A DNA stretch of 64,000 nucleotides from an uncultured delta proteobacterium (GTDB lineage Bacteria > Desulfobacterota > Binatia > UBA9968). Numbering within the stretch: the stretch's first letter is position 1; each line of letters begins with the position of its first letter. The DNA lies in NCBI GenBank assembly GCA_963811315.1, contig CAWERH010000039.1:4501-68500 (forward strand). Direction: 5' to 3'. The translations under genes and the position numbers were made by a program. This document shows positions 8,358 through 57,812 of the stretch, in pieces. The notes beneath the pieces are model-generated. The model was not told the origin of the DNA. It worked only from the letters and a program-made list of their open reading frames with translations, and searched no databases.

Positions 8358-8405
8358 GAGTTCCAAACGTTCAAAACGTTCCAGTCGTTCCAAGTCGTTT
8401 CGGAT
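8358..8405. repeat. stop-proximal short tandem repeat array (GTTCCAAACG / GTTCAAAACG units)
   Basis: gagttccaaacgttcaaaacgttccagtcgttccaagtcgtttcgg lies immediately after the stop at 8357. Related arrays occur at 25249, 39516, 45745 and 57760. Confidence 0.4.
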
Positions 8406-8418
8406 AACGCATTGTCCG

Positions 8419-9440
8419 ATGTCTTACCCTCGCCCGCTTGCGGGAGAGGGAAGGGTGAGGGCGTGCATCGACGCGTTATTAATTATCAGCCTGCTTTTGA
8501 GCTTTGTTGTCCTGGTAGCGAAATTTGCTTCGCCGCCGACAAGCTGCGCATCAGTTACTCGGGCACGACGACGAGCAACGCGCTTCTTTGGGTGACCAAG
8601 GAAGCGAAACTTTTTGACAAGAACGGCATCGACGCGGAAGTGCTTTATCTGGCGGCGTCGCTCGGCCAGACCGCGTTGATCGCGGGCGAGACCCAGTTCG
8701 CGGTCTACACGGGACTGCTGATGACGCCAACCCGCCTGCAAGGCGCCGACGTTACGATGATCGCCGGGTTTCTAAATTATCTGGTCTCGCGCTTGGTCGT
8801 GCGTCCGGACATCAAGACCGCCGCGGATTTAAGAGGCAAACGTTTGGCCGTGTCGCGTTTCGGCACGGCGTCGGATTTCGGTACCCGCTTGATGGTGTCC
8901 AAGCTCGGTTTGAATCCCGACACCGACGTCACGATCTTGCAGATCGGCGACACGCCCACCCGGGTCGCCGCACTGATGGCCAAGAGCGTCGACGGCGCGA
9001 TCTTCGATCCGCCCGATCACAAAAAGGCCATCGAAAACGGCGGCCGCATCATGATGAACTTGGAGGAAACCGCGATTCCGTATCAGCATGCCGGTTTGAT
9101 GACGACGCGAAAGTACATCGCCGCCCGGCCGGACATCGTTCGGCGGGTGGTCAAAGCGATTGTCGAGGGCGCCGCGGTGGTGCGCAAAGATCCGGAGACC
9201 ACCAAGCGGGCGCTGTCGATCCGCATGCGCATCAAAGATCCCAAAGACCTCGAAGAAACCTATCAGCAGCTGCGCGGCTTCACGCAAGCCAAACCCTATC
9301 CAAGCCTGGAAGGTTTCAAAGCGATCTTGAACGATTTGTCCAAGCGCGTGCCCGCGGCGAAAAATGCCGATCCGAAAGATTTTGCCGATCTCCGGTTCGT
9401 CGAAGAACTGGATAAGTCGGGTTATATCGATGGACTCTAA
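8419..9440 (+). CDS. NMT1/SsuA-like periplasmic substrate-binding protein; frameshift near 8545
   Basis: The signal-peptide frame MSYPRPLAGEGRVRACIDALLIISLLLSFVVLVAKFA shifts into AADKLRISYSGTTTSNALLWV... The gene is a tandem paralog of 9494-10471. Confidence 0.75.
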
Positions 9441-9470
9441 AGGCGTGAGGCTTGAGGCGGGAGGCTAGAG
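9441..9470. repeat. 7-mer tandem array AGGCGTG AGGCTTG AGGCGGG AGGCTAG
   Basis: It follows the TAA stop at 9438-9440 directly. Confidence 0.4.
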
Positions 9471-9493
9471 TCGTGTGGACAAAGACGTATTTT

Positions 9494-10471
9494 ATGCTTG
9501 AAAAGTTAACGCCGATTCTCACTGTAATTCTGGCTGCAGTTTTGTTGCTGCGCTCCGCATCGGCCGGCGCCGCCGATAAGATTCGTATCGGTTACTCCGG
9601 CGCGACGGTCAGCAACGCGATGCTCTGGGTGACCGACGAAGGCAGACTGTTTCAAAAAAACGGCATCGATCCGCAAATCCTCTATTTGCAAACGACGCTC
9701 GGACAGACGGCGATGATCGCCGGTGAAATCGACATGTGCGTCTACTCCGGCAGTCTGCTCTCGGCGGCGCGCTTGCAGGGAGTCGACGTGGTGATGGTCG
9801 TAAGTTTTCTCAACAAGCCGCTCTATCGGCTGGTGGTTCGCCCCGAGATTCGCACGGTCGCCGATCTCAAGGGAAAACGGCTCGGCATCACGCGCTTCGG
9901 CACTGTCACCGATTCGATGTCCCGGCTCCTGATCAACAAACTCGGACTCGATGCCGAGAAAGACGTTTCTTATATTCAGGTCGGTGATGTGCCAATCCTG
10001 TTAGCTTCCTTGTCGTCAGGCAAGATTATCGACGGCGCGATCATTCAGCCGCCTTATTATTTGAAGGCGGTGGCCACCGGCATGCGCGTTTTGGTGAATA
10101 TGCAAGAGATGGACATCCCGGTCCAACAAACCGGGCTCAATACCACGCAGAAGTTCATCGCGAAAAATCCCGATGTCGTGCGGCGGGTAGTCAAGTCGGT
10201 GATCGAAGGGATCCATCTGATGCGCACCAATCCCGCCGTGGCCAAGCGGGCGCTCTCCAGGCGCATGCAGATCAAAGATGAAAAAGAGATCGAAGACACC
10301 TATCAATTGCTGAAGAGTTTCGTGCAGATCAAGCCGTATCCGACTCTGGAAGGCTTCAAAACCATTTTCGAAGATCTGGCGAAAAGAGTTCCGGCGGCAA
10401 AGAACGCCAATCCCAAGGAATTTGTCGACACCCGGTTTATCGAAGAGTTGGATAAGCTCGGGGTTTATTGA
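9494..10471 (+). CDS. NMT1/SsuA-like periplasmic substrate-binding protein
   Basis: MLEKLTPILTVILAAVLLLRSASAGAADKIRIGYSG... Intact. The ATG at 9494 is preferred over the ORF-tool start at 9452 because it gives a proper signal peptide. Confidence 0.85.
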   Translation: MLEKLTPILTVILAAVLLLRSASAGAADKIRIGYSGATVSNAMLWVTDEGRLFQKNGIDPQILYLQTTLGQTAMIAGEIDMCVYSGSLLSAARLQGVDVVMVVSFLNKPLYRLVVRPEIRTVADLKGKRLGITRFGTVTDSMSRLLINKLGLDAEKDVSYIQVGDVPILLASLSSGKIIDGAIIQPPYYLKAVATGMRVLVNMQEMDIPVQQTGLNTTQKFIAKNPDVVRRVVKSVIEGIHLMRTNPAVAKRALSRRMQIKDEKEIEDTYQLLKSFVQIKPYPTLEGFKTIFEDLAKRVPAAKNANPKEFVDTRFIEELDKLGVY

Positions 10472-10524
10472 CGCATTGGAGCGCCAGTGATACGCGATGC
10501 TTGACGGATAATTGGGGAGGAACG

Positions 10525-11520
10525 ATGTTGAGAATACAAAGATCGCTGATGGGTGTCGCTTTGATTGTGGCTTTCGCCACTCCTGCCCTGGGGCAAAGCC
10601 TGCCCAAAGTCCGCGCCGCCTACACATCCATAAGCATCCAATTCGATGCGGTTTACATCATGAAGGAGCTCAACCTGCCGCGGAAATACGGCTTGGATGC
10701 CGAAATTCTTTTTGTGCCGGTGAGTTCGCGCGCCGTGCAGGCGGCGCTCGCGGGCGAGATTCAATTTATCACCAGTGGCGGCGTGGCCAATATCAATGCG
10801 AACGTCACAGGCGCCGATTTCACCGGGCTTACCGCGACACTCAATACTTTTGTCTTCAAGGTCTTCGCGAGCCCGGAGATCAAAAAGCCTGAGATGTTAA
10901 AGGGCAAGAAGGTCGGCATTTCCCGTCTCGGCGGCGCCAGCGATTTTTCTATTCGCTATGCGCTAAATTACTGGGGTCTCGTCCCCGACAAAGACGTTGC
11001 CATCATCCAGGTGGGCGGCGAACCGGAGTCGCTTCTGGCGCTACAAAACAAAGCCGTGGACGCGGCGATCTTATCGGAACCGTTTGCAAGCCTGGCAAAG
11101 CGCAATGGCTCAGTGCTGCTGGCTGATTTAAGTCAGCTCGGCGTGCCTTACACGATGCACGGCTTCGGGGTGCGCAAGAGTTACATTCAGGCCAATCGGG
11201 ACGTTGTCGTCCGATTCATGAAAGCCTATCTCGAAGGCATCTATGTTTTCAAAACCAACAAGGACATTGCGTTGAACGTCCTGAAAAAATATACCCGGCA
11301 GGACGATCTTTCCCTCGTACAAGTGGCCTATGAGGAAATGTCCCAGAAGCTTATCCGCAGAGTCCCGTACCCCAACCGCGAAGGGATTCAGACGATCATA
11401 GATCAGCTCGCCAAGACCCGGCCGGAAATGAAAAATCTCAACCCCGGCGACTTCATCGATCCGTCGATCTTGAAAGAAATCGAGGACAGCGGGTTTATTA
11501 AAAAGTTGTATGGAAATTAG
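10525..11520 (+). CDS. NMT1/SsuA-like periplasmic substrate-binding protein
   Basis: ATG at 10525 after SD GGAGG: MLRIQRSLMGVALIVAFATPALGQSLPKVRAAYTS... Intact. Confidence 0.85.
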   Translation: MLRIQRSLMGVALIVAFATPALGQSLPKVRAAYTSISIQFDAVYIMKELNLPRKYGLDAEILFVPVSSRAVQAALAGEIQFITSGGVANINANVTGADFTGLTATLNTFVFKVFASPEIKKPEMLKGKKVGISRLGGASDFSIRYALNYWGLVPDKDVAIIQVGGEPESLLALQNKAVDAAILSEPFASLAKRNGSVLLADLSQLGVPYTMHGFGVRKSYIQANRDVVVRFMKAYLEGIYVFKTNKDIALNVLKKYTRQDDLSLVQVAYEEMSQKLIRRVPYPNREGIQTIIDQLAKTRPEMKNLNPGDFIDPSILKEIEDSGFIKKLYGN

Positions 11521-14881: not shown

Positions 14882-15061
14882 ATTTCGGTCCCGGAAGTTC
14901 GATGAAAAAGTTGATCACGCCTTAGCCGTCATACCTGCGGAAGCCGGTATCCAGATGGTTTTGAAATTCCTGGATTCCGGGTCGCCCCCGGCCTTCGCCG
15001 GGGTTGCCCGGAATGACGATCGATTTAATGTTGCTGGGCCAGGACGCTAGATTTCGGCCAA
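14874..15061. mobile_element. MITE-like hairpin element (14928-15033, termini GTCATACC..GGAATGAC) flanked by perfect 16-bp direct repeats GGACGCTAGATTTCGG (14874-14889 and 15046-15061)
   Basis: The direct repeat includes the TAG stop of the upstream SBP gene. The internal sequence is an imperfect long hairpin of the same family as 7135, 49717 and 52488. Confidence 0.5.
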
Positions 15062-19884: not shown

Positions 19885-20967
19885 TTGGAGTTACCGACAG
19901 TGCAAAACCTCACCTCTAACCTCATCGAAGTCGAAGACAGCTGGGAAGCGGTCAATGACTGGTTCTGCAACGAAAAACTGAGTGACGGTTTGCCGATCGT
20001 GCCGCCTACGGCGGAGCGGGTCGAACGAATGCTCGAGCGCGACGAATCGCGGGATCCGCAGGAAGTCATCGGGCCAATCCCGCCGAAGTGGGCGCCTTGT
20101 TCGATCGAGAAGATTGCCATCAATGCGGTCATGGCCGGCTGTTTGCCGGAATATTTGCCGGTGATCATCGCGGCGGTGGAAGCGATCTGCGAACCGCGCT
20201 TCAATCTCTATGGCGTGCAAGCGACTACCGGATACGTCGGCCCGGCGCTCATGCTCAACGGTCCGATTCGCAAAGCACTCAACGTCAATTGCGATGCCGG
20301 CGTGTTTGGTCCCGGCTTTCGCTCCAACGCGACCATCGGCCGCGCCATTCGATTGATTCTCATCACCGTCGGCGGCGGCTACCCGGGCGACACCGATCGC
20401 TCGACTTTTGGCTGGCCGGGCAAGTACACCATGTGCTTTGGCGAAAATGAGGAGAAGAGTCCGTGGGAGCCGTATCACGTGGAGTTCGGTTTTAAACCTG
20501 ACGAAAACAGTGTGACGGTGTTCGGCATCAATGGTTTTTTGCCGATCCACACGGCCGGCAGTCGCGGCGAGCAGGCGCTTGCTTCGCTCGCAGAAGTTAT
20601 TCGCATGCACCACGGCGTGAGTCATCTCGACGTCGGCAGTTTTGGCGGCGGCACACCGCTGGTTGCCCTGGGCGTCGAAGACGCCGAGATCATGGCGCGC
20701 GACGGCATCACCAAGAAACAAGTCAAGGACTTTCTCTGGGAGCACGCGTCGCTCAAATTTTCCGAAGTTCCGGCGCGCCGCAAAGGCCACAAAGACGACG
20801 CCGAGTTGCTGCGCGAATCGCCCAACGTTACCCCCGATGGCGTCGTCCATCTTTCCACGAAGGCCGAAGACATCATGGTCATCGTGGTTGGCGGCAAGCA
20901 TCGCCATTCGGTATTTCTGCCGATGTGGACCGGGCGCAATACGCTGTGCGTGATCAAGCCAATTTAA
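19885..20967 (+). CDS. conserved hypothetical protein genetically linked to the UGSC selenoprotein (partner, copy 2)
   Basis: 360 aa and intact: ..SDGLPIVPPTAERV..EKIAINAVMAGCLPEY..NLYGVQATTG..GWPGKYTMCFGENEEKSPWEPYHVE.. TTG start at 19885. The 19891-21120 minus-strand ORF is antisense. Confidence 0.75.
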   Translation: MELPTVQNLTSNLIEVEDSWEAVNDWFCNEKLSDGLPIVPPTAERVERMLERDESRDPQEVIGPIPPKWAPCSIEKIAINAVMAGCLPEYLPVIIAAVEAICEPRFNLYGVQATTGYVGPALMLNGPIRKALNVNCDAGVFGPGFRSNATIGRAIRLILITVGGGYPGDTDRSTFGWPGKYTMCFGENEEKSPWEPYHVEFGFKPDENSVTVFGINGFLPIHTAGSRGEQALASLAEVIRMHHGVSHLDVGSFGGGTPLVALGVEDAEIMARDGITKKQVKDFLWEHASLKFSEVPARRKGHKDDAELLRESPNVTPDGVVHLSTKAEDIMVIVVGGKHRHSVFLPMWTGRNTLCVIKPI

Positions 20968-21010
20968 TAGCAATTGGAGTAGTGGAGTGATGCGGAAGAA
21001 GATCGAGGAT
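20968..21010. repeat. tandem repeat array (TGGAGTAG/TGGAGTGA then GAGGATG x3) overlapping the start region of the next gene
   Basis: ttggagtagtggagtgatgcggaagaagatcgaggatggaggatggaggatcg. Confidence 0.35.
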
Positions 21011-21999
21011 GGAGGATGGAGGATCGCCCGCGCGGCGGCGATTTTCATGCTCGCGTTTCTGTTCGCCACGGTTTGTAATGCGCAGGAGAAATTTCGCTTT
21101 CCGATCGCTGAATCGTCCAAGACCTTGAGCTATGGTCCGCTCTGGGTCGCCTCGAAGATGGGTTTCTTTGACAAGGAAGGCTTGGACGTGCCGATCGTCA
21201 CCATGCGCGGTTCGCCGCTGGCGATTCAGGCGCTGACCGCCGATTCGATTTATATCGCCAACGCGACCGTCGATACCCTGATCAACGCCTACGAGAAAGG
21301 CGCGGATATCACGATGATCGGCGGGCCTGATCAACGGGCTTGGACTTGAGCATGATCGGCGGCAAGCCCTATAAGACCTATGCCGACCTGCGCGGCACGA
21401 CGATCGGCACGCAGACGCTGACTTCCGGCACTGGATTCGCTCTTCGCTTGGTGCTCAAGGTGCACGGCTTGGAATATCCGCGCGACTACGCGCTGCTCAA
21501 CATCGGCGGCGCTTCGGACCGCTATCAAGCGCTGACGTCCGGTCAAATTTCTTCCGCCCCGGTCGGCGTGCCTCTCGATCTGGTTGCCAAACAGCAAGGC
21601 TTCAACATCATCGGTTATTTTGCCGATGACCAACCGAACTTTCAGTTTAATGTCTACATCGTCAAACGCTCCTGGGCGGAAAAAAACCGGCCGCTGACGG
21701 TGCGCTTCATGAAAGCGATGGCGTCGACCATGCGCTGGATGGCGGACAACCGCGACGCTGCCTGCACCTATCTTTCAAAGGAAATGGCGATCAGCGTCGA
21801 GCATTGCCGCTATGCCTCCGACTACAACTGGAAAAGCCGCATCTGGGACCGCAATGCCGATATCAACATCGAGGGCGTGCGCACGCTGATCAAAATCACC
21901 GCCGAGCAAGGCATTCTCAAAGAACCTTTACCCCAGCCGGCGAAATACCTCGATCAAAGTTATCTTAAGCAGGCGCTGGCGGAACTGGCGAAGAAATAA
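20987..21999 (+). CDS. NMT1-like periplasmic substrate-binding protein (subtype B, paralog of 29216-30186); frameshift near 21335
   Basis: ORF 20987-21349 (..FLFATVCNAQEKF..LWVASKMGFFD..TMIGGPDQR) joins ORF 21340-21999 (LDLSMIGGKPYKTYADLRG...LEYPRDY...). Confidence 0.75.
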
Positions 22000-22056
22000 C
22001 AAGGCGAAGAGGCACGAGGCTTGAGACGGAAAACTACAAGGGATTGAGGAGATCGC

Positions 22057-23058
22057 ATGAGACAATCAACGCGTTTGGGATTTTTGATTTTGTTCTTGAG
22101 CGCGGTGGCTGTCGCCGCTTCCGCGAATGCTCAGGACAAGATACGCATGGGGCTCAGCTCGGTGAGCGGGTTGCACAGCGCCGTGTGGGTCGCGGCGGAA
22201 AAGGGACTGTTTCGCAAGCACGGTATCGACGCCGAAGTGATCGTCACCGGGCAGGGCGGTACTGCCGGTATCAGCGCGCTGATCGCCAACGACGTCCAGA
22301 TAGTCAATTCAGCGGGTGATGTTCTAGTTGCGGCGGCGTTGCGCGGCGGTGACACCGTGATGATCGCGGGGGTCGTCAACAAGGGGCTGCAGCGATTGGT
22401 CACCAAACCGGAGATCAAAGCGCCGGCGGATTTGAAGGGCAAGCGGATCGGCGTCACCCGGATCGGCGCGGTCTCTCATTCGGTTCTGCTGATGATGCTG
22501 CAGCAGTGGAAAATGAGCCCCAGCGACGTGCAGGTCATGCAGCTCGGCTCGTCGCCGAGCATGCTGGCGAGCCTCGACAAGGGCGGCATCGAGGGCGCGG
22601 TGCTGACGATCCCGTCGATGTTCGTCGCCGAGGACCGCGGCTACCGTGTCTTGCTCGATATGGGGGATACCGACATTTACTATCTGCACACCATGGTCGC
22701 GACGACGCGCCAATACATCAAGACCAATCGCGACAAGGTTTTGCGATTTCTCAAAGGGTATGTCGAAGGTATCGCGTTCGTGAAGCAACACAAGAAGGAA
22801 AGTCTGGATATCGTCAAGAAAAAACTTCGGCTTGGCCCGGAGCAGGAACGCAATCTCGAACGGTCCATCGACCTGTTGATAGCGAAATACTACGAGTCGA
22901 TTCCCTATCCGTCGCTGCGCGGCGTCGAAACCGTGCTCGGGTTCGTCGAAAAGGACAACCCGAAAGCGAAAACCGCCGATCCGAAGTCTTTTGTCGATGA
23001 CAGTTTGCTGCGTGAGATCGAAGCCAGCGGGTTCGTCAAAACGCTTTACCAGCGCTAG
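22057..23058 (+). CDS. NMT1/SsuA-like periplasmic substrate-binding protein
   Basis: MRQSTRLGFLILFLSAVAVAASANAQDKIRMGLSS... 333 aa, intact. Confidence 0.85.
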   Translation: MRQSTRLGFLILFLSAVAVAASANAQDKIRMGLSSVSGLHSAVWVAAEKGLFRKHGIDAEVIVTGQGGTAGISALIANDVQIVNSAGDVLVAAALRGGDTVMIAGVVNKGLQRLVTKPEIKAPADLKGKRIGVTRIGAVSHSVLLMMLQQWKMSPSDVQVMQLGSSPSMLASLDKGGIEGAVLTIPSMFVAEDRGYRVLLDMGDTDIYYLHTMVATTRQYIKTNRDKVLRFLKGYVEGIAFVKQHKKESLDIVKKKLRLGPEQERNLERSIDLLIAKYYESIPYPSLRGVETVLGFVEKDNPKAKTADPKSFVDDSLLREIEASGFVKTLYQR

Positions 23059-23082
23059 GAAACGTTCGTTTCGGACAAGCCG

Positions 23083-24079
23083 ATGAAAATTCTCTGCTTT
23101 GGTCTTTTTGCCGTCGGCGTTCGCGCTTATTTTCGGCAGCCATGCCGACGCGCAGGACAAAATTAGAGTGGGGTTGAGCTCGGTGAGCGCTCTTCATGGC
23201 GCCATGTGGGTGGCTGAGCAAAAAGGATTGTTTCGTAAGCATGGCATCGAAACGGAAATCATCGTCACGGGCCAGGGTGCGACGGCGGGAATCGGCGCGC
23301 TGCTTGCCAACGATATTCAGATCGCCAGCGCCGGCGGAGATGCTCTGATTAACGCCGCCTTGCGCGGCGGCGAGACCGTGATGATCGCCGCCGGTATCAA
23401 TAAAGGATTGAACAGGATTATGGTGCGGTCGGATATCAAAACTCCGGCCGACCTTAAGGGAAGAAAGATCGGCGCGACTCGCGTCGGCGCCGTCTCTCAC
23501 TCGGTTCTTTTGATGATGCTCAAGCGCTGGAACATGAGCCCGGCGGATGTTCAGGTTCTCCAGCTCGGTTCTTCGCCGAACATGCTCCAAGCCTTGGACA
23601 AGGGCGGCATCGACGGCGCTGTGATGACGATCCCGTTCGTGTTCATCGCGGAAGATCGAGGTTTTCGCGTTTTAGTCGATCTGGCGGAAACGGATATTTA
23701 TTATCTTCACACGATGATTGCGTCCACGCGAAGCTATATCAAGGCCAATCGCGACAAGGCGTTAAGATTTCTCAAGGGTTTTCTCGAAGGCATCGCTTAT
23801 TTCAAGCATAACAAAAAGGAGAGTCTCGATATCGTCGGAAAAAAACTCCGTGTCAACGCAGACCAAGAGCGGAATCTCGAGCGCTCCTACGATCTTCTGG
23901 CGACGAAATATTACGAAGCCACGCCTTATCCGTCGCTGCGCGGCGTCGAAACCGTGCTCGGAATCGTCGAAAAGGACAATCCGAAAGCGAAAACTGCCGA
24001 TCCGAAATCTTTTGTCGATGACAGCTTGCTCCGCGAGATCGAACAGAGCGGTTTCGTAAAGACGCTGTACAAGAATTGA
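23083..24079 (+). CDS. NMT1/SsuA-like periplasmic substrate-binding protein, tandem near-duplicate of 22057-23058; frameshift in the T5 run 23104-23108
   Basis: MKILCFGL then a shift into LPSAFALIFGSHADAQDKIRVGLSS... The remainder is colinear with the upstream paralog. Confidence 0.75.
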
Positions 24080-24348
24080 CTGTGGTGCGCCAAGTCGTTG
24101 ATAGGGCAAGCGCGCCACGATGTGGTCGAAGGCGGACAAAGCGAAAAATCCCTCGCTTGACGCTGTGTCGTGATCTCGACTTCTTAAGTGGTCACGAAAC
24201 GCGAGATTCTCGCTAACGCTCAGAATCTTAGTGCACGTTTGGCAACTGCGACACGTCTCTGCTCGGCATGACAAACAAGTAAATATTCCAGTCCCGGAGA
24301 GAAGGAATTCGATAAAAGTAAAGCCCTGACTATAATTGCTAAGCGCGC

Positions 24349-24378
24349 TTGACAGATCGAGGAACGGTCGCATAAGGT
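24349..24378 (+). promoter_or_regulatory. weak sigma70-like promoter candidate (TTGACA-18-TAAGGT) ahead of the enoyl-CoA hydratase gene
   Basis: TTGACA at 24349-24354 in a 330-bp intergenic region. The -10 match is poor. SD AGGAGG 24394-24399 precedes GTG 24409. Confidence 0.25.
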
Positions 24379-24408
24379 CAAACAAAATTTCTCAGGAGGT
24401 ATAGAAAC

Positions 24409-25248: not shown

Positions 25249-25300
25249 ATAAGTTCAAGGTTCAAAGGTTCAAGGTTCAACGCTGGGTGCGGATTTTGGT
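25249..25300. repeat. stop-proximal 8-9-nt tandem array (GTTCAAGG/GTTCAAAGG x4)
   Basis: aagttcaaggttcaaaggttcaaggttcaacg directly after the TAA at 25246-25248. Confidence 0.4.
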
Positions 25301-25369
25301 TTGAAGGATTGCCGTCAAGCCGAAATCCGCAATCCAAAAGTGATCCCCGCAGACTAAATTGGAGCGAAG

Positions 25370-26535: not shown

Positions 26536-26540
26536 TTTGG

Positions 26541-26620
26541 CCGTCGAGGATAGAGGATCGAGGATCGAGGATAGCGTCCGGTCGATCTTCGCATCCTCCA
26601 TCTTCTATCCTCGGCTGAAA
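26541..26620. repeat. 8-mer tandem array (GAGGATAG/GAGGATCG x4) paired with its inverted complement, forming an imperfect hairpin
   Basis: cgaggatagaggatcgaggatcgaggatag...catcctccatcttctatcctcgg. Confidence 0.45.
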
Positions 26621-26645
26621 ACCGATTACACTATCATGGATTGCA

Positions 26646-27856: not shown

Positions 27857-27859
27857 GCC

Positions 27860-27957
27860 AATTAAAAATTAAAAAGGCAAAATTAAAAAAGCGGGAACCC
27901 GGAACACTTTGGACCGATTCGTAGATTATTTGAATTTTTAACTTTTAATTTTTAATT
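27860..27957. promoter_or_regulatory. AT-rich inverted repeat between the tandem CoA-transferase genes (arms AATTAAAAATTAAAA..., ~40-nt spacer)
   Basis: aattaaaaattaaaaaggcaaaattaaaaaa ... ttgaatttttaacttttaatttttaatt. The arms share 15/15 nt at their outer ends. Local GC is about 25% in a ~63% GC context. Confidence 0.4.
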
Positions 27958-27959
27958 CT

Positions 27960-30186: not shown

Positions 30187-30317
30187 AAAGCAGGCAATAG
30201 GCATTAGGCCAGTGAGATGCAAATGGCTCTTGCAATTCTTACTGCTAGTGCCTAGTCGCCTTCCCAGTCTCTTGAATATTTTTGGCTGTGCCCTTATAAC
30301 TCACCGATCACAAGGAG

Positions 30318-30871: not shown

Positions 30872-30925
30872 GGAAAGGACTCGGTTGGAGTATTGGAGTA
30901 ATGGAGTATTGGAGTGATGGAAGGG
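30872..30925. repeat. 8-mer tandem array (TTGGAGTA/ATGGAGTA x5); an inverted copy of the same array is at 38182-38232
   Basis: ggttggagtattggagtaatggagtattggagtgatggaag. Confidence 0.45.
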
Positions 30926-33006: not shown

Positions 33007-33121
33007 GAAGGCATAGGCATCAGGCAATAGGCAACAGTGGATAAAGGCAAAAGTAAAAAGGTGAAATAAGAGACGAAATTCTAAAGCGGCAATAAACGTT
33101 CTTAGCCACGGAGGTCGCGAT

Positions 33122-34120: not shown

Positions 34121-34192
34121 CGCGCGGCAAGGGCGTTCAAGCTTCAAAGTTTGGGAACGGAATTACCTTGCACCTGAAGTTGTCTCAACCCA

Positions 34193-37761: not shown

Positions 37762-37763
37762 CG

Positions 37764-38181: not shown

Positions 38182-38232
38182 AGAATGTGAACTCCAACAA
38201 TCCAATACTCCATCACTCCAATACTCCAGCTG
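38182..38232. repeat. inverted copy of the TGGAGTA 8-mer tandem array
   Basis: ctccaacaatccaatactccatcactccaatactccag is the reverse complement of the array at 30872-30925. Confidence 0.45.
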
Positions 38233-38252
38233 CTTTCTAGGAGGTATCAACC

Positions 38253-39415: not shown

Positions 39416-39429
39416 CGCCGAGAGCGTCG

Positions 39430-39515
39430 CCGCCGAGCCACTCGATCGGCGCTTTCTCGAAGAGAGAGAAACGATGGGAGTTTGAGCGGCTGGGAATGGC
39501 GCACTGACGCGCGGT
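39430..39515 (+). pseudogene. non-coding remnant: duplicated 3' end of an NMT1-like SBP gene plus its downstream repeat
   Basis: ctcgatcggcgctttctcgaagaga...gagcggctgggaatggcgcactgacgcgcgg matches the last ~25 codons and stop of 33122-34120 (gatcgaccggcgctttctcgaagagatgg...gatcggctgggaatggcgcgctgacgcgcgg). Confidence 0.5.
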
Positions 39516-39590
39516 CGGTGCTTCAAAGTTCAAGGGTTCAATTTGAGGCGCGGGCACCTTGAACTTTTGAACATTGAACCTTGAACGGTT
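39516..39590. repeat. GTTCAAGG-type tandem units in inverted arrangement around CGCGGG (hairpin between convergent genes)
   Basis: caaagttcaagggttcaatttgaggcgcgggcaccttgaacttttgaacattgaaccttgaacgg. Confidence 0.4.
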
Positions 39591-39599
39591 TGCTCTGCT

Positions 39600-40611: not shown

Positions 40612-40841
40612 CGGATCGCCCTCCTTTGGGTTGCTGTTCGCGATGTTGCTACAGATCAGGTGGAAAAGGCAATAGGGAATATTGGATGGCGAGCGTTCAA
40701 GCCGTTCAAAAAGCCTAACTGTGAGATTCGGAGCGAAAGCGCGACGAAAATTGTACTTGGTTTTTGCCCTGGAGTCATTGTAAGAACGAGCGAACTGTTT
40801 GACTCTCGTTGAAACTTTCTTTGTGCCCAGGGGGGGCCGTC

Positions 40842-43242: not shown

Positions 43243-43340
43243 ATTACCCAGCGGCAAGCTGACAGATATCAGAGCCGATGGAATTCGTCCCAAAGCCGTC
43301 GCTCTCCGAATGTCTCAATCAGGGACAGTTCGAGTCTAGC

Positions 43341-43372
43341 CTGGATTCCCGCTTAAAGCATGCGGGAATGAC
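43341..43372. repeat. partial MITE/REP-like arm (..GCGGGAATGAC) with a TCCCGC..GCGGGA hairpin
   Basis: ctggattcccgcttaaagcatgcgggaatgacg. Confidence 0.3.
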
Positions 43373-43495
43373 GACCTTCGGATAGATGTGCCCCTGTTTG
43401 TGAAGCCCGAGTTCTAACGTACTAAGGAAGCAGTTGCGGCGCATCGGCATGATTGAGCCGACGCGCCGCAAGCAGAAGAGCTGTCGATCGGATTA

Positions 43496-45744: not shown

Positions 45745-45800
45745 AATCACTTTTTCGTTCCAGCCGTTCAAAACGTTCCAATCGTTCCAGTTGTTTCGGA
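45745..45800. repeat. GTTCCA/GTTCAAAACG-type tandem units ending in the CCAGTT-GTTTCGG-AACTGG hairpin
   Basis: ccagccgttcaaaacgttccaatcgttccagttgtttcggaactgg after the stop at 45703. Confidence 0.4.
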
Positions 45801-45821: not shown

Positions 45822-46793
45822 TCACTTGACCCAGAGATTGTTTAGGTCGCCGATGTTCGGCAATAGGCCGAGCGATATCCCGGACTGCAAAATTTTATTT
45901 TGCGATTGAAAAAAGGCCTCGCCCCATTTGTCGGCGAAGTTGGCTTTATTTTGCTTGATGCCGGCGGCGATTTCCTCCGGGGTGCTTAGGTTAAATAGCT
46001 CTTTGGATTTCGATTTGAAAAAATCTTCGTCCTGGCCGGCCTTGATCATCTGCACCGCGTCCGCATAGGCGCTCCTGATGGCTTTGACGATTTGCGGCTG
46101 TTTGTCGATGGTTTCCTTGAGCATGCCGACCGTCGACTTGAGCGGCGGCGCGCCGAAGATCTGCTCGAGCTCGATGTCGAAGTCGAGAAGCACGCGATAT
46201 CTGCCGGACATCACGAGCCGCGTTGTGTGCGGTTCGAACATGTTGATCGCTTCAACTTCGCCGCGCTCCAGCAACGCAATCAACGCGCCGGTTTCGGCGG
46301 GAACGTTTTGGAAGTCTTTTTCGATGTCGAGCTTTCTTTCCTTGGCGATCACCGCGGAAAAAAAGTAGGCGCCGGTGACCCGCGCGAAGTTGCCGATCTT
46401 CTTGCCTTTGAGATCACCGAGGCTTTTATACGGCGCGTCTTTTTTAATCAGCCACGAATTGCCGGACCAGATCTGCGGCGCGATCAAGCGTATGTCGGCG
46501 CCGCTCTTGACCAGGTTGACCGCCGTGCTGGGCTGCATGGCGCTGGCTATGGTGCGGCCGAGCTTGACCGCATTGGCCGCTTCGGTGAAGTCCATCATCA
46601 TGTTGGTGATCTTGAGGCCGTACTTGGTATCGAGTCCTTTGTTCTCAATCAGCGCAGCGATGTAACCGGATTGACCGGAGGCGCTGGTGGCAATGTTGAT
46701 GGGTTGCAAGGCTTGGCCGGCTTGGGCCGTGCCGCATAGTCCGGCGGCGGCAAAAAACCCACTGATTAGCCCGAGCAAAGTTCTCATCTTCAT
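45822..46793 (-). CDS. ABC transporter substrate-binding protein (NitT/TauT/SsuA family)
   Basis: 323 aa with signal peptide MKMRTLLGLISGFFAAAGLCGTAQA. Its ATG overlaps the stop of the ATPase gene (ATGA). Confidence 0.85.
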   Translation of the reverse strand: MKMRTLLGLISGFFAAAGLCGTAQAGQALQPINIATSASGQSGYIAALIENKGLDTKYGLKITNMMMDFTEAANAVKLGRTIASAMQPSTAVNLVKSGADIRLIAPQIWSGNSWLIKKDAPYKSLGDLKGKKIGNFARVTGAYFFSAVIAKERKLDIEKDFQNVPAETGALIALLERGEVEAINMFEPHTTRLVMSGRYRVLLDFDIELEQIFGAPPLKSTVGMLKETIDKQPQIVKAIRSAYADAVQMIKAGQDEDFFKSKSKELFNLSTPEEIAAGIKQNKANFADKWGEAFFQSQNKILQSGISLGLLPNIGDLNNLWVK

Positions 46794-49716: not shown

Positions 49717-49804
49717 GTCATCCTGAGCCGCAGGCGAAGGATCTGCTTCTGAGATAGAAAGACGCGAAAGCAGATTCTTCGTCGCGCGGCTCCTCAGAAT
49801 GACA
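49717..49804. repeat. MITE/REP-like hairpin, full copy (GTCATCCTGAGCCGCAGGCGAAGGATCTGC...GCAGATTCTTCGTCGCGCGGCTCCTCAGAATGAC)
   Basis: ~88-nt imperfect inverted repeat. The 3' flank gaatgacaccgtctatg..aaatgat is shared with the copy at 52488-52590. Confidence 0.55.
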
Positions 49805-49859
49805 CCGTCTATGTTGAAATGATGCGTGGGGTCACAGCGTGATGCGTGCGGAGTAGTGA

Positions 49860-55710: not shown

Positions 55711-55718
55711 TGGTAGAG

Positions 55719-55818
55719 GAAAGGATGAAGGATAAAGGCGGAAGGATGAAGTACGCAGATCGTCGATTTGGGTCTTCCCTCAATTTATCCTTTATCCTTT
55801 TGCCTTTATCCTTTCTTC
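55719..55818. repeat. AAGGATRA-type 8-mer tandem units and their inverted complement forming a long imperfect hairpin
   Basis: ggaaaggatgaaggataaaggcggaaggatgaag ... cctcaatttatcctttatccttttgcctttatcctttc. Confidence 0.45.
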
Positions 55819-56647
55819 AAATACTGACCTTGCCGCCGTTGAGCTTGATGCCGAGCTTCGCCAATGCTTCGACCACTGGGATCTCCGCGCCGAGCGCTTT
55901 GCCGACATCGGCGGCGAGCGGCAGATCTTTGTCGTAGAGATTCGTGCCGGGATTGAACGTCAATTCGCCGCCGGAGATGTCGTAGCGGGTTTCCCAGCGA
56001 TCGAGGATGTGCTGCGACTTGGTTTTTTTCATCAGATCGAGCGCGGCCTTGTAGCTGACGCCGCCGGCCTTGGCGATCTGCAGCGCTTCATAGACGATCA
56101 ACGCTTCGGAGGCGGTGACCATGTTTTTGAATAGTTTGGTCACGTTGCCGCAGCCAAGCGGACCCATGTGCACGGCGTCTTTCGCCATCTTCAGCAGATG
56201 CGGCTTGGCGCGCTCGAAAAAAGCTTTTTGCCCGCCGACGAGAAAGGTCAAACCGCCCTGGCGCACCATGCTGGGAACCGCCGTCATGCAGGCGTCGATG
56301 ACGTTGACGCGTTTGTCGGCCGCCAGCTCGGCAACTTTTTTTGTCGTTGCCGGACGGATCGTGCTGTGGAGCAAGACCAGCGCGCCGGGCGACGCGCCCT
56401 CCAAAATGCCGTCGGCTCCGAGCACGCAGTCCAAGACTTCCTGATCGGTGCGCACGACGACGTCGATGAGCGTGCAGGATTGCGCCACGGCCTTCGCCGA
56501 CGGCGCGGTTTCAGCGCCTTCCGCGCGCGCCGCTTCCAAAGCGGCGGGGGCGATATCGAAGGCGGTAGCGACGACGTTGGCGAGTTTCAATCGCGATAAC
56601 AGGGCGCTGCCCATCGCGCCGGTGCCGACAAAGCCGATTTTGTCCAT
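55817..56647 (-). CDS. NAD(P)-dependent oxidoreductase, 3-hydroxyisobutyrate dehydrogenase-like family
   Basis: MDKIGFVGTGAMGSALLSRL.. 276 aa, intact. Confidence 0.85.
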   Translation of the reverse strand: MDKIGFVGTGAMGSALLSRLKLANVVATAFDIAPAALEAARAEGAETAPSAKAVAQSCTLIDVVVRTDQEVLDCVLGADGILEGASPGALVLLHSTIRPATTKKVAELAADKRVNVIDACMTAVPSMVRQGGLTFLVGGQKAFFERAKPHLLKMAKDAVHMGPLGCGNVTKLFKNMVTASEALIVYEALQIAKAGGVSYKAALDLMKKTKSQHILDRWETRYDISGGELTFNPGTNLYDKDLPLAADVGKALGAEIPVVEALAKLGIKLNGGKVSI

Positions 56648-56660
56648 GATTCGATTCCTC

Positions 56661-57677
56661 CTAAGCTTTTGCTTCGAGCTGCGGCATGACCTGTTTGGTA
56701 AATAATTCCAACGAGCGTGAGGTTTCGTCCGGCGACAGATCGCCGAAAGCGAATTGACCGACGAGATAGTTGCAGCCCGCTTGAGCCATTTGATCCTGTA
56801 AAAAAGCGGTAACGGTCGCCGGACTGCCGGCGATACCCTGGCCCACTTTTATGAGCGCGTCCAACTCCGCCGGTCGCTGATGCACCGGGCCTTTGCCGCC
56901 GCGATGGTAGAAAAGATGGTTGAAGCTCTTATGCCATACCGGATAGGCCCTGCGGCCAATCTTGACCGCTGCATCGTCGGTTTCCGCGACGAAGATGAAG
57001 CGGCCCAGACCGATCAGCGGCGCGATGGGATTTTTCGCCTGCGTCTCGCGCCATACTTCGCGAAAGCGATCGGTGAATTCACGGGTCTTGTCGGCGGGAT
57101 CGAGGCTCACGACATTCAGTCCTTGGCGCGCCGCTCGTTCCGCGCTCACCGTCGAGTGCACGCCGTACCAGACCGGCGGATGGGGTTTTTGCAAGCACTC
57201 CAATTCCATTGGCACGTCATCGAACGAGAAACAGTCGCCGTGAAAGTCGAGCGTCTTGTGGGTCAAGCCGCGCATGATGAGTTCGAGTCCCTCGACGTAC
57301 ATTGCCTCGGCCTTGGCGGGATCATTGCCGTAGATCGCTGCTTCGATCTGCGATGCGCCGCGGCCGAAGCCGATGTCGAGGCGGCCGCCGCTCATCTGAT
57401 CGAGCATGCAAATCTCTTCGATCAGGCGGATCGGATGATAGAGCGGCAGGGCATAAACCAGCGGCCCGAAACGCAGCCGCTTGGTGCGCTGCGCCACCGC
57501 GGAGAGAAAAACGCTGGGCGAAGGCGCCATGCCGAGCGGCGTCGAGTGATGCTCGGCGACGTGATAGGCGTAAAAACCCTCGCGATCGTAAGTCTCGATG
57601 AGTTGAAGGCGCGCCTCGTAATATTCGCGCAGCGGCAAATTGTTGCGGTCCAGGTGGTCGAAAATCCCAAACTTCAT
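56661..57677 (-). CDS. LLM-class flavin-dependent oxidoreductase (luciferase-like monooxygenase)
   Basis: MKFGIFDHL...YHVAEHH..LVYALPLYHPIRLIEEICMLDQMSGGRLDIGFGRG.. 338 aa, intact. Confidence 0.85.
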   Translation of the reverse strand: MKFGIFDHLDRNNLPLREYYEARLQLIETYDREGFYAYHVAEHHSTPLGMAPSPSVFLSAVAQRTKRLRFGPLVYALPLYHPIRLIEEICMLDQMSGGRLDIGFGRGASQIEAAIYGNDPAKAEAMYVEGLELIMRGLTHKTLDFHGDCFSFDDVPMELECLQKPHPPVWYGVHSTVSAERAARQGLNVVSLDPADKTREFTDRFREVWRETQAKNPIAPLIGLGRFIFVAETDDAAVKIGRRAYPVWHKSFNHLFYHRGGKGPVHQRPAELDALIKVGQGIAGSPATVTAFLQDQMAQAGCNYLVGQFAFGDLSPDETSRSLELFTKQVMPQLEAKA

Positions 57678-57759
57678 ATCACGCGGGATATATCGTGAAT
57701 CTTGGTGAAATCAAAGGCCGCGGCGGAGAAATTGAAGACGCGGCGGCCGGTTCGGTTTT

Positions 57760-57812
57760 GAATCAGCCAACGGCTTGAACGTTTTGAACGATTGGAACGT
57801 CTTGAACCCGGT
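57760..57812. repeat. inverted copy of the GTTCAAAACG/GTTCCAA tandem array
   Basis: ggcttgaacgttttgaacgattggaacgtcttgaaccc is the reverse complement of the 8358 and 45745 arrays. Confidence 0.4.

What the first reader, a model, noticed from the sequence alone, without database searches (positions are those of the whole stretch)
8358..57812. Stop-codon-proximal 7-9-nt tandem repeat arrays recurring in more than 14 intergenic regions, some in inverted pairs
Short arrays of 3-5 units sit immediately after stop codons. GTTCAAGG/GTTCCAAACG units are at 8358, 25249, 34121, 39516, 45745 and 57760 (the last inverted). TTGGAGTA units are at 30872 and, inverted, at 38182, plus 20968. GAGGATCG units are at 26541 and 20990. 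AAGGATGA units are at 55719. AGGCNNG/AGGCAAT units are at 9441, 30188, 33017 and 21990. Several arrays are followed by their own reverse complement (26541-26620, 55719-55818, 39516-39590), so the RNA would fold into long hairpins with periodic bulges. Many units contain GGA or AGGA, reminiscent of the repeated GGA loops of CsrB/RsmZ-type sRNAs that titrate CsrA. Alternatively they are a genome-specific terminator or REP class. The unit sequence varies while period and position are conserved, which is unusual.
Basis: partly seen in the sequence, partly recalled or inferred. Interest (0 to 1): 0.6.

Follow-up and report, generated by a model that had tools for sequence, protein, structure and literature searches.

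The report
Heptamer repeat hairpins between Binatia genes
Short 7-9-base tandem repeats fill many gaps between genes in this uncultured soil bacterium (Candidatus Binatia), often pairing into long RNA hairpins; this is a new lineage for a known but unexplained kind of bacterial repeat.

Summary
The window holds 14 arrays that pass Tandem Repeats Finder (period 6-10, at least 2.8 copies) against 0.84 expected, plus weaker ones, in about 16 spacers. Thirteen of 21 start 0-15 nt after a stop codon (8.8% expected).

The window comes from a relative of Candidatus Binatia. In 765 kb of related genomes, period 7 dominates sharply (133 noncoding arrays; none at 5 or below, or at 10-13). Arrays are almost all noncoding and are depleted between divergent genes.

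The strand read with the genes is G-rich. About half the arrays are followed by a complementary C-rich array, giving a hairpin of about 28 bp that spans the whole spacer. The G-rich arm always comes first. The sense RNA folds better than the antisense RNA. Genes after hairpins mostly lack a Shine-Dalgarno (SD) motif. Orthologous spacers keep a hairpin while the repeat unit changes.

None is an intrinsic terminator or matches Rfam. The CsrA-sponge idea is not supported.

These match the known but functionally unexplained intergenic heptanucleotide repeats: cyanobacterial STRR, Xanthomonas GGGAATC and Beggiatoa TAACTGA. My best reading, which is inferred, is that they are structures in the mRNA between genes. 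They would couple translation of adjacent genes and protect or process the mRNA, and they would be generated by replication slippage. It is a new member of a known kind, of moderate interest.

The parts
8360..8403 (+). GTTCMAANN array, about 4 units of 9-10 nt, starting 2 nt after the stop at 8355-8357. It is a single array on the sense strand.
9441..9470 (+). AGGCNNG heptamer array, about 4 units, directly after the TAA of the solute-binding-protein (SBP) gene 8412-9440. The next SBP gene probably starts at ATG 9494.
20974..20992 (+). Weak TGGAGTR array of about 2.5 units, 6 nt after the stop at 20965-20967. Orthologues carry 3-5 units here.
20998..21024 (+). GAGGATN array of 4 units. It overlaps the possible 5' end of the SBP ORF (MRKKIEDGGWRI...). 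The same arrangement is seen in L001, L008, L011, L023, L069 and L074.
22000..22029 (+). Degenerate AGGCNNN-type array filling the spacer between two SBP genes. Orthologues have GGAGTRA or AAAATTA arrays at this position.
25253..25280 (+). GTTCAAG array of about 4 units, 4 nt after the stop of the enoyl-CoA hydratase gene. The same array is present at this position in at least 10 relatives.
25284..25345 (+). Hairpin with a GGATTTTGG-type 5' arm and AATCCAA-type 3' arm heptamers.
   Evidence: (region 25249-25369: sense -44.0 kcal/mol, z -4.8; antisense -32.2)
26543..26616 (+). GAGGATN x4 5' arm (26546-26574) and NATCYTC 3' arm (26585-26615), forming a hairpin of about 30 bp between the acyl-CoA dehydrogenase and CoA-transferase genes.
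   Evidence: (-48.2 sense against -38.4 antisense)
27860..27957 (+). AATTAAA x4 (27860-27889) and TTTTAAT x4 (27929-27957), an A/U-rich inverted pair that ends 2 nt before the CoA-transferase ATG.
30192..30212 (+). AGGCAAT x3, 5 nt after the SBP stop. The orthologue in L012 is a full AGGCAAT/TTGCCTA hairpin.
30885..30921 (+). TTGGAGTA octamer array of 4.5 units, 14 nt after the orthologue-supported stop of the GNAT acetyltransferase gene (30868-30870) and 44 nt before the next ATG.
33009..33037 (+). AGGCAWY array of about 4 units at the stop of SBP gene 32021-33016. It is nearly identical in L022.
34135..34158 (+). Degenerate GTTCAAG-type remnant, 14 nt after the SBP stop. It is the paralogous copy of the element at 39520.
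38191..38228 (+). ACTCCAAY octamer array of 4.8 units. The C-rich strand is on the sense strand, which is an exception. It lies between the gene with the ChsH2 OB-fold domain and the CoA-transferase gene, just upstream of an AGGAGG SD.
39520..39586 (+). GTTCAAG-type array (39520-39541) with its inverted copy (39558-39586), forming a hairpin next to the stop (39538-39540) of the minus-strand DUF6282 ORF 39538-40878; the 3' arm overlaps that ORF's 3' end.
45755..45789 (+). GTTCCAANN nonamer array of 3.9 units between convergent genes. It is on the sense strand of the + gene that ends at 45703.
55721..55814 (.). AAGGATR x4.4 (55721-55751) and TTTATCC x4.4 (55784-55814), forming a hairpin 2 nt after the stop of the minus-strand dehydrogenase gene 55817-56647.
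   Evidence: (-44.4 on +, -30.4 on -)
57775..57807 (-). GTTCAAGNN nonamer array of 3.7 units, read on the minus strand, 11 nt after the stop of the minus-strand amidohydrolase gene 57819-58880.

Best explanation
These are the Binatia counterpart of the intergenic heptanucleotide repeat arrays known from a few other bacterial lineages (cyanobacterial STRR, Xanthomonas GGGAATC, Beggiatoa TAACTGA).

Shown:
- They are a lineage-wide class of noncoding tandem arrays of 3-5 units, overwhelmingly of 7 nt. They are drawn from about ten recurring unit families and placed in spacers between co-directional or convergent genes.
- The strand read with the genes is G-rich and C-poor.
- About half are followed by a complementary C-rich array, so the transcript can form a helix of about 28 bp. 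It starts about 7 nt after the upstream stop codon and ends about 10 nt before the next start codon.

Inferred mechanism:
- The elements act in the polycistronic mRNA. The helix closes the spacer and brings the stop and the next start together.
- The terminating ribosome must melt the base of the helix. The downstream gene usually has no SD, so its translation would be coupled to translation of the upstream gene.
- The long helix would also serve as a barrier to 3' exonucleases and/or as an RNase III processing site, setting the stability of each gene's segment separately.
- Single G-rich arrays, many with SD-like GGAG/GAGG/AGGA cores, would supply ribosome contacts in short spacers.

Inferred origin:
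- Replication slippage, for which a bias towards period 7 has been proposed in prokaryotes.
- Copying between the two arms and selection then keep the arms complementary.
For: Identity and kind:
- The window's CoA-transferase is 79-89% identical to genes in MAGs (metagenome-assembled genomes) labelled Candidatus Binatia.
- Arrays in the window: 14 against 0.84 expected.
- In 765 kb of relatives there are 226 arrays. Noncoding counts by period are 7:133, 8:35, 9:15 and 6:11, with none at 5 or below or at 10-13.
- Density per kb of spacer is 2.1 for co-directional, 1.45 for convergent and 0.62 for divergent gene pairs.
- The same unit families recur across genomes.

Polarity:
- 5' arms have G>C in 35 of 37 cases; 3' arms have C>G in 35 of 42 cases.
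- The order G-rich then C-rich occurs at least 23 times; the reverse order never.
- Single arrays have G>C on the sense strand in 43 of 56 cases.
- By family, sense against antisense counts are 18:4, 38:13 and 11:3.

Action at the RNA level:
- In spacers with arrays the sense RNA is more stable than the antisense RNA in 55 of 72 cases (mean -4.5 kcal/mol). In array-free spacers it is 112 of 194 (-0.8). Mann-Whitney p=4e-4.
- Median folding z is -3.7 with arrays and -0.5 without.

Geometry:
- The helix has a median of 28 bp.
- It begins 7 nt after the stop and ends 10 nt before the start.

Coupling:
- An SD-like 4-mer lies at -18..-4 in 13% of genes after hairpin spacers, against 39% after array-free spacers (p=3e-4).
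- At the orthologous CoA-transferase junction, high-GC Binatia have an overlapping TGATG stop/start.

Constraint:
- The orthologous spacer keeps a heptamer-armed hairpin while the unit changes: AATTAAA, AATGGAT, CAGATTN, GCAAATT.
- GAGGATN arms are 0.82 identical between the window and its orthologues. Fourfold-degenerate sites in the neighbouring gene are 0.50-0.58 identical.

Literature:
- STRR hairpins of 7-bp repeats lie between hupS and hupL, with transcript stability or translational coupling proposed (PMC2670836).
- Heptamers are the most abundant long simple-sequence repeats in most prokaryotic genomes, and a polymerase-slippage explanation has been proposed (PMC4679880 and PMC4692102, citing Mrazek 2007).
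- Xanthomonas and Nostoc arrays mostly have 4 units. They lie G-rich downstream on the coding strand and are under-represented between divergent genes. They sometimes occur inverted, and sit at conserved positions with variable sequence (PMC4692102).
Against: - There are no expression data, so co-transcription, cleavage and coupling are all inferred.
- The excess of G:U pairs on the sense strand could come from transcription-associated C-to-T mutation rather than selection.
- Some relatives have no array at the same junction (L005, L009, L021, L026, L028), so the elements are dispensable there.
- RNAalifold on 15 GAGGATN hairpins found no compensatory pair changes, because the paired columns are invariant. 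Structural support therefore rests on comparisons between unit families.
- Start codons are my own longest-ORF calls, so the SD result and the distances to starts are approximate.
- The counts include orthologous sites, so the p-values overstate independence.
- 38191-38228 is a C-rich single array on the sense strand, and the 55721-55814 hairpin folds better on the strand opposite to its only confirmed neighbouring gene.
- Why particular units recur is not explained.
Confidence: 0.5

Rival explanations
1. The arrays are selfish or neutral repeats with no function for the host. They would be slippage-generated microsatellites, or REP/MITE-like palindromic elements that spread between spacers. 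Their location and strand bias would only reflect where they are tolerated.
For: - The same hairpin family, with the same higher-order unit order (AATGGAT AATGGAT AATTGAG AATGGAT), sits in two different spacers of L002, L015 and L022.
- One orthologous spacer is occupied by different families in different species and is empty in some.
- The genome carries other REP-like palindromes.
- A slippage bias towards period 7 has been proposed for prokaryotes (PMC4679880, PMC4692102).
- Mismatches recur in the same unit phases, which fits duplication of 14- or 16-nt double units.
Against: - Arms are far more conserved than fourfold-degenerate sites (0.82 against 0.50-0.58).
- Single arrays have a strong orientation bias relative to genes.
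- The sense strand has a folding advantage.
- Genes downstream of hairpins are depleted in SD motifs.
- Loops differ between copies in one genome, and no RAYT (REP-associated transposase) was seen in the 1.28 Mb held (weak evidence).
- The array at 33009 keeps its unit number against L022 at 96% identity, unlike hypermutable repeats.
Confidence: 0.3
2. The arrays are binding sites for a trans-acting RNA-binding protein with sequence specificity, such as CsrA, ribosomal protein S1, a cold-shock protein or an unknown factor. This includes the first reader's CsrA-titration idea.
For: - GGA is enriched in G-rich units (43 of 78 against 26 expected).
- The AAGGATG and GAGGATG units resemble the CsrA core ARGGAUG (my own knowledge).
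- Each lineage prefers a limited set of units, and those units are conserved at orthologous sites.
- MacGregor proposed S1, Csp or CsrA as binders for the TAACTGA repeats (PMC4679880).
Against: - Several abundant families lack GGA (GTTCAAG, AGGCAAT, AATTAAA, GCAAATT).
- In hairpins the GGA is base-paired.
- The arrays are not stand-alone sRNA genes, and Rfam finds no Csr/Rsm match.
- Ten or more unrelated unit families are hard to assign to one binding protein.
- The presence of csrA is unknown.
Confidence: 0.1
3. The hairpins are Rho-independent transcription terminators.
For: They lie directly after stop codons, some between convergent genes (39520-39586, 55721-55814). Their stems are long and stable.
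Against: - No array hairpin appears among the terminator-like sites, and such sites are not enriched (32 against 24.7±5.0).
- There is no T-tract after the stems.
- The stems are A/U-rich with large apical regions (median 19 nt).
- Most lie between tightly spaced co-directional genes, 10 nt before the next start.
Confidence: 0.04
4. The arrays act at the DNA level, through non-B structures (G-quadruplex, cruciform) or as binding sites for a DNA-binding protein.
For: Rehm et al. showed G4 formation by GGGAATC and GGGGAYT repeats, with a preference for four units (PMC4692102). The arrays here also have about 4 units.
Against: - Most units here have at most GG and no G3 tracts.
- Orientation follows gene direction where that differs from GC skew (57775-57807).
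- The sense-specific G:U asymmetry points to RNA.
Confidence: 0.05

Closest known systems
G-rich heptamer repeats of Xanthomonas (GGGAATC) and Nostoc (GGGGAYT), Rehm et al. 2015 (PMC4692102)
   Same: - 7-nt units, mostly about 4 copies, with a strong noncoding bias.
- The G-rich strand lies downstream of genes on the coding strand.
- Under-represented between divergent genes.
- Some inverted pairs can form stem-loops.
[quoted passage not shown]
- Function unknown.
   Different: - The units here lack G3 tracts, so G-quadruplexes are unlikely.
- There are about ten unit families instead of one.
- About half of the arrays are hairpin arms with a fixed order, G-rich arm first.
- The phylum is different (Binatia).
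Cyanobacterial STRR (short tandemly repeated repetitive) sequences, e.g. the hupS-hupL intergenic hairpin (PMC2670836; Mazel 1990 from my own knowledge)
   Same: - Tandem heptamers of several unit types in intergenic regions of operons.
- They form hairpins between adjacent genes.
- The proposed roles are transcript stability or translational coupling.
   Different: - Different units (STRR1-3 are CCCCAGT, TTGGTCA and CAACAGT, from my own knowledge).
- Restricted to heterocystous cyanobacteria.
- No relation by sequence.
TAACTGA direct repeats of marine Beggiatoaceae (PMC4679880)
   Same: - Intergenic heptamer arrays of 2-6 copies close to ORF ends.
[quoted passage not shown]
- Post-transcriptional or translational roles were proposed.
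   Different: - A single unit type, mostly directly upstream of start codons.
- Only one inverted case was reported.
- Here there are many families, the arrays start next to stop codons, and hairpins are frequent.
REP/BIME and REPIN elements, Neisseria Correia elements (PMC3116915 for REPINs; roles in mRNA stability and RNase III processing from my own knowledge)
   Same: - Extragenic palindromic repeats just after stop codons.
- Co-transcribed, forming hairpins that can protect upstream mRNA or be cut by RNase III.
- The same intergenic sites are occupied in related species.
   Different: - Those elements are not built from tandem heptamers, and they have family-wide conserved full-length sequences.
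- REPs depend on RAYT transposases, and Correia elements have terminal inverted repeats (TIRs) and target-site duplications.
- None of these features was shown here.

Membership tests
Intergenic heptanucleotide long simple-sequence repeats (STRR-like) | Head-to-tail tandem copies of a unit of about 7 nt, longer or more frequent than chance | tested here: met
   14 arrays against 0.84 in shuffles. Period 7 accounts for 133 of 201 noncoding arrays.
Intergenic heptanucleotide long simple-sequence repeats (STRR-like) | Strong bias to noncoding DNA | tested here: met
   Period-7 arrays are essentially all noncoding. The few 'coding' calls are gene-calling errors or GC-rich 6- and 9-mers.
Intergenic heptanucleotide long simple-sequence repeats (STRR-like) | A small set of preferred units recurring at many loci of a lineage | tested here: met
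   GTTCAAG, TGGAGTR, GAGGATN, AGGCAAN, AATGGAN, GTCRGAR and others recur across 35 or more genomes.
Intergenic heptanucleotide long simple-sequence repeats (STRR-like) | STRR in the strict sense: units CCCCAGT, TTGGTCA or CAACAGT in heterocystous cyanobacteria | tested here: not met
   The units differ and the organism is a Binatia relative. It is the same kind of element, not the same sequence family.
CsrB/RsmZ-type CsrA-titrating sRNA | Stand-alone sRNA gene with many GGA motifs in loops or single-stranded stretches | tested here: not met
   The arrays lie 0-15 nt after stops inside gene strings. GGA is in 43 of 78 units and in stems within hairpins. There are only 3-5 units per array.
CsrB/RsmZ-type CsrA-titrating sRNA | Match to an Rfam Csr/Rsm covariance model | tested here: not met
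   No Rfam family reaches its gathering score anywhere in the window.
CsrB/RsmZ-type CsrA-titrating sRNA | csrA/rsmA present in the genome | not testable with these tools
   There is no csrA in the 1.28 Mb held, but that is a tiny part of these genomes.
Rho-independent terminator | G+C-rich stem with a short loop, followed by a T-tract | tested here: not met
   No array hairpin is among the terminator-like sites of 20001-40000. No T-tract follows the stems.
REP/REPIN | Short imperfect palindromes in extragenic positions, often as inverted pairs that form a hairpin | tested here: met
   Inverted array pairs form helices with a median of 28 bp in spacers.
REP/REPIN | Associated RAYT (IS200/IS605-like) transposase and a conserved full-length element sequence | tested here: inconclusive
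   No RAYT was found in the held sequence, but coverage is too small to conclude. Loops differ between copies in one genome.
MITE | Terminal inverted repeats flanking a conserved internal sequence, with target-site duplications | tested here: not met
   Copies of the AATGGAT hairpin in L015, L002 and L022 share arms but not loops. Target-site duplications were not examined.
Phase-variable contingency repeats | Perfect repeats whose unit number varies between close relatives, in promoters or 5' coding regions | tested here: not met
   Arrays show 73-95% matches. The array at 33009 has the same unit number in L022 at 96% flank identity. Arrays are depleted in divergent, promoter-containing spacers.

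The most novel reading that the evidence does not exclude
The heptad arrays are a cis-acting code for regulation of operons after transcription. G-rich units placed just after a stop codon would hold the terminating ribosome or an unknown heptad-reading RNA-binding factor. The built-in complementary arm and the number of units would set how efficiently the next gene, which lacks an SD, is translated. Slippage in unit number would then act as an evolvable dial for expression ratios within operons. If true, this would give a function to the long-unexplained excess of heptanucleotide repeats in several bacterial phyla.
Probability: 0.15. Interest if true: 0.8.

Novelty: new member of a known kind. 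Interest (0 to 1): 0.45.

Why it matters
Intergenic heptanucleotide arrays have been known since 1990 in cyanobacteria, and were later reported in Xanthomonas, Burkholderia and Beggiatoaceae. Their function is still unknown.

The Binatia case adds a new phylum and many sequenced relatives. In these, orthologous spacers can be compared directly. The comparison gives several leads that are not reported for the known cases:
- a fixed hairpin polarity, with the G-rich arm first;
- a folding advantage of the sense strand;
- helices that span from stop codon to start codon;
- downstream genes that lack SD motifs;
- replacement of a stop/start overlap by a hairpin-filled spacer.

These observations turn a vague idea, 'stability or coupling', into specific hypotheses that can be tested with reporters.

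There is also a practical consequence. The arrays extend spurious ORFs and mislead start-codon calling in these MAGs.

Tried and rejected
- Rfam at gathering thresholds gave no family.
- An exact look-up of a window protein found nothing on record.
- Terminator scan: no overlap with the arrays.
- The idea that heptamers place stop codons in all three frames is rejected. Stop triplets are depleted in units (33 against 47±3.7).
- RNAalifold covariation on 15 GAGGATN hairpins was uninformative, because the paired columns never vary.
- Per-position conservation from regex hits was discarded as circular. I replaced it with a TRF-based test of mismatch phase. That test may itself reflect higher-order duplication of 14- or 16-nt double units.
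- Rho avoidance as the reason for the G-first polarity was considered and is weak. C-first REP-like hairpins (CCCTCTCCC...GGGAGAGGG) occur in the same spacers. The few C residues in the units are mostly in YC dinucleotides.
- G-quadruplexes are unlikely, because the units lack G3 tracts.
- tblastn for CsrA, Hfq and RAYT against all held sequence gave no hits, which is uninformative.
- HutP/TRAP-like (UAG/GAG-N4) periodic sites were a lead from memory only and were not pursued.

Full report
**1. The observation**

Tandem Repeats Finder lists 41 rows in the window. After merging, 14 are arrays of period 6-10 with at least 2.8 copies. They lie at 9441, 21001, 25253, 26546, 27860, 27929, 30885, 33009, 38191, 39567, 45755, 55721, 55784 and 57775. 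The 9-10-nt array at 8360-8403 also shows up, as two rows of about 2.4 copies.

Four of them have only 2-3 degenerate units: 20974, 22000, 30192 and 34135.

Dinucleotide shuffles of the window give 0.84 arrays on average, with a maximum of 4 in 100. Shuffles of the noncoding part give 0.06.

With a curated gene set, 13 of 21 arrays begin 0-15 nt 3' of a stop codon. Only 8.8% of noncoding bases lie in that zone (p=2e-9).

The inverted pairs fold into long hairpins:

| Region | Sense energy (kcal/mol) | z |
|---|---|---|
| 26536-26645 | -48.2 | -4.6 |
| 55717-55816 | -44.4 | -6.2 |
| 25249-25369 | -44.0 | -4.8 |
| 39505-39600 | -30.8 | -1.8 |

The A/U-rich pair at 27860 is weak in energy, but its arms are clearly complementary.

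**2. The organism and its genes**

The genes are mostly NMT1-type solute-binding proteins (SBPs), family III CoA-transferases, enoyl-CoA hydratases, acyl-CoA dehydrogenases and similar.

A scan of species-representative genomes with the CoA-transferase at 27960-29171 returned 80 loci. The best are 79-89% identical and come from MAGs labelled Candidatus Binatia or 'uncultured delta proteobacterium'. Nucleotide identity to the nearest relatives is about 80%. Identity at fourfold-degenerate sites is 0.50-0.58. These are therefore different species, with close to saturated neutral divergence.

**3. The phenomenon is lineage-wide and sharply heptameric**

I analysed the window plus 54 loci of G+C 0.53-0.60, 765 kb in all, using gene calls from my own codon model.

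- TRF finds 226 arrays.
- Over all periods, the noncoding counts are 133 at period 7, 35 at 8, 15 at 9 and 11 at 6. There are none at 5 or below and none at 10-13.
- The 'coding' cases are GC-rich 6- and 9-mers, or artefacts of ORFs that run through arrays.
- Density per kb of spacer is 2.1 between co-directional genes, 1.45 between convergent genes and 0.62 between divergent genes.
- High-GC Binatia, Chloroflexota and Actinomycetota loci from the same scan lack such arrays.
- The same unit families recur across dozens of genomes: GTTCAAG(N), TGGAGTR, GAGGATN, AGGCAAN, AATGGAN, GTCRGAR, GCAAATT, CAGATTN and TTTGGAT.

**4. Anatomy and polarity**

Each spacer was folded as sense RNA, and each array was classed as a 5' arm, a 3' arm or a single array.

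- 5' arms have G>C in 35 of 37 cases (p=1e-8). 3' arms have C>G in 35 of 42 cases.
- The order purine-rich then pyrimidine-rich occurs 23 or more times. The reverse order never occurs. This polarity looks the same from either DNA strand.
- Single arrays do reveal orientation. They have G>C on the sense strand in 43 of 56 cases (p=7e-5).
- By family, sense against antisense counts are GTTCMA-type 18:4, GGAGT-type 38:13 and AGGC-type 11:3. The antisense cases lie 40-150 nt from the stop, so most are probably 3' arms.
- The inverted array at 57775 follows the minus-strand genes, although GC skew there is unchanged. Orientation therefore tracks transcription.

For 32 hairpins:

- The helix has a median of 28 bp (range 11-47), with 3 G:U pairs.
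- It starts 7 nt after the stop (interquartile range 3-16.5).
- It ends 10 nt before the called start (interquartile range 4-23.5).
- The median spacer is 113.5 nt.

The helix therefore closes the whole spacer.

**5. Evidence that the RNA matters**

- Spacers with arrays fold better as sense than as antisense RNA in 55 of 72 cases, by a mean of -4.5 kcal/mol. Array-free spacers do so in 112 of 194 cases, by -0.8. The difference is significant (Mann-Whitney p=4e-4).
- Median z is -3.7 with arrays and -0.5 without.
- The asymmetry comes from G:U pairs, with GAGGAT opposite ATCTTC. Transcription-linked C-to-T mutation could contribute, so this evidence is suggestive, not decisive.
- None of the hairpins is terminator-like, and Rfam has no match.

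**6. Comparative evidence**

At the spacer upstream of the CoA-transferase (27786-27959), about 20 relatives have a hairpin with heptamer arms, but the unit differs by lineage. It is AATTAAA in the window and AATGGAT in L012, L015 and L019. It is CAGATTN in L003, L007, L013 and L016, and GCAAATT in L008 and L072. Both arms have changed together.

At the spacer after the enoyl-CoA hydratase gene, at least 10 relatives keep (GTTCAAG)3-4 directly after the stop. Others carry AATGGAT, GTCRGAR or CAGTAGT hairpins there.

In 15 GAGGATN hairpins, 14 of them from the spacer upstream of the 26646 CoA-transferase gene, the arms are 0.82 identical to the window's. That is far above the 0.50-0.58 seen at fourfold-degenerate sites. 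Because the paired columns never vary, RNAalifold finds no compensatory changes. The 7th position of the unit is variable and often unpaired.

Within arrays, mismatches cluster in about two of the seven phases (453 against 376±11). This could reflect selection, or it could reflect duplication of 14- or 16-nt double units.

Some relatives have no array at a given junction. High-GC Binatia have an overlapping TGATG stop/start at the CoA-transferase junction.

**7. Links to translation**

- Units of the G-rich arrays are enriched in GGA (43 of 78 against 26±3.8).
- They are also enriched in SD-like cores GGAG, GAGG or AGGA (37 of 78 against 17±3.2).
- Stop triplets are depleted (33 against 47±3.7).
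- In short spacers the array is the whole spacer and its last unit sits where an SD should be. An example is L009: TGA-(GGAGTRA)5-GGAGTGGCC-ATG.
- Genes that follow hairpin spacers have an SD-like 4-mer at -18..-4 in only 13% of cases (7 of 52). The figure is 39% after array-free spacers and 59% after single arrays (Fisher p=3e-4). Start calls are approximate.

**8. Interpretation**

Shown: this is a Binatia-wide class of noncoding heptamer arrays. It has a strand polarity tied to gene direction and frequently forms hairpins that span the spacer.

Inferred: the arrays act in the mRNA.

- The helix begins within the reach of a ribosome terminating at the upstream stop, and it ends just before a start codon with no SD. 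Termination upstream should therefore open the helix base and hand the ribosome to the next gene. This is translational coupling, which replaces the stop/start overlap seen in relatives.
- A helix of about 28 bp is also long enough to be an RNase III substrate or a 3'-exonuclease barrier. This comparison draws on my own knowledge of REP, Correia and phage T7 sites.
- The origin by polymerase slippage follows the explanation proposed for the general excess of heptamers in prokaryotes (PMC4679880 and PMC4692102, citing Mrazek 2007).

Not explained: why a limited set of units recurs and is conserved.

**9. Comparison with what is known**

The features match published descriptions closely.

- STRR hairpins of 7-bp repeats lie between hupS and hupL. 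Stability or coupling roles were proposed for them (PMC2670836).
- Xanthomonas GGGAATC and Nostoc GGGGAYT arrays mostly have four units. They are noncoding, with the G-rich strand downstream on the coding strand, and rare between divergent genes. They are sometimes inverted, and they are conserved in position but variable in sequence (PMC4692102).
- Beggiatoaceae TAACTGA repeats lie next to ORF ends in spacers that lack canonical ribosome-binding sites. S1, Csp or CsrA were proposed as binders (PMC4679880).

A full-text search found no paper that mentions both Binatota and tandem repeats. This is therefore a new member of a known, functionally unresolved kind.

The CsrA-sponge reading is not supported. 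csrA itself could not be checked.

**10. Verdict**

Interest is moderate. The repeat class is known, but the comparative signals here give concrete, testable hypotheses for a long-standing puzzle.

Noticed in passing
window 34046-34125 and 39441-39520: About 80 nt of the 3' end of SBP gene 33122-34120, including its stop and the start of a GTTCAAG array, is duplicated 5.4 kb downstream. In L022 the two flanks are only about 700 nt apart. The 34.1-39.5 kb block (SBP, thiolase-like, OB-fold and CoA-transferase genes) therefore looks like an insertion bounded by this repeat.
   Followed up: partly
window 25370-26164/26161-26535; 38253-38933/38930-39415; 20987-21349/21340-21999; 30318-30917 against 30598-30870: Four genes are split into two overlapping ORFs in different frames: an acyl-CoA dehydrogenase, a CoA-transferase, an NMT1-type SBP and a GNAT acetyltransferase. 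These are either frameshift errors of a long-read assembly or pseudogenes.
   Followed up: partly
window 32087-34111 against L022 13221-15248: This 2-kb segment is 96% identical to L022, while the neighbouring segments are 78-88% identical. This suggests recent exchange between lineages.
   Followed up: no
window 8438-8478; 14940-15015; 43330-43375; 36466-36530; 49720-49830: Other palindromic repeat families that are not heptamers lie in spacers. They include CCCTCGCCC...GGGAGAGGGAAGGGTGAGGG, CTGGATTCCCGC...GCGGGAATGACG and GTCATCCYGAGC... types. Related copies occur in L006, L009, L018, L023, L027, L069 and L070, and in a Chloroflexota locus (L077).
   Followed up: partly
window 20990-21060 and orthologues in L001, L008, L011, L023, L069, L074: A GAGGATN array lies directly after a candidate ATG of an SBP gene. 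If that ATG is used, the array would be translated as the N-terminal R/K-I-E-D-G-G. In L008 a second array (AAAATTA) follows in the same frame. Whether the array is coding or is an SD array for a start further downstream is unresolved.
   Followed up: partly
window 38191-38252: The only C-rich single array on the sense strand, (ACUCCAAY)5, sits immediately upstream of a strong AGGAGG SD. Its CUCC repeats could pair with that SD.
   Followed up: no
L043-L068 (high-GC Binatia), junction orthologous to window 27786-27959: The two CoA-transferase genes overlap as ...ATCTGATGCCC (a TGA/ATG overlap) instead of being separated by a spacer of about 170 nt that carries a hairpin.
   Followed up: yes
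window 8412-11520, 20987-24079, 29122-34120, 45822-46793: There are at least ten NMT1/THI5-like SBP genes, several in tandem. All four AGGC-type arrays in the window follow such genes. Two of those genes (ending 21999 and 30186) have similar 3' ends, so some arrays may have spread by gene duplication.
   Followed up: partly
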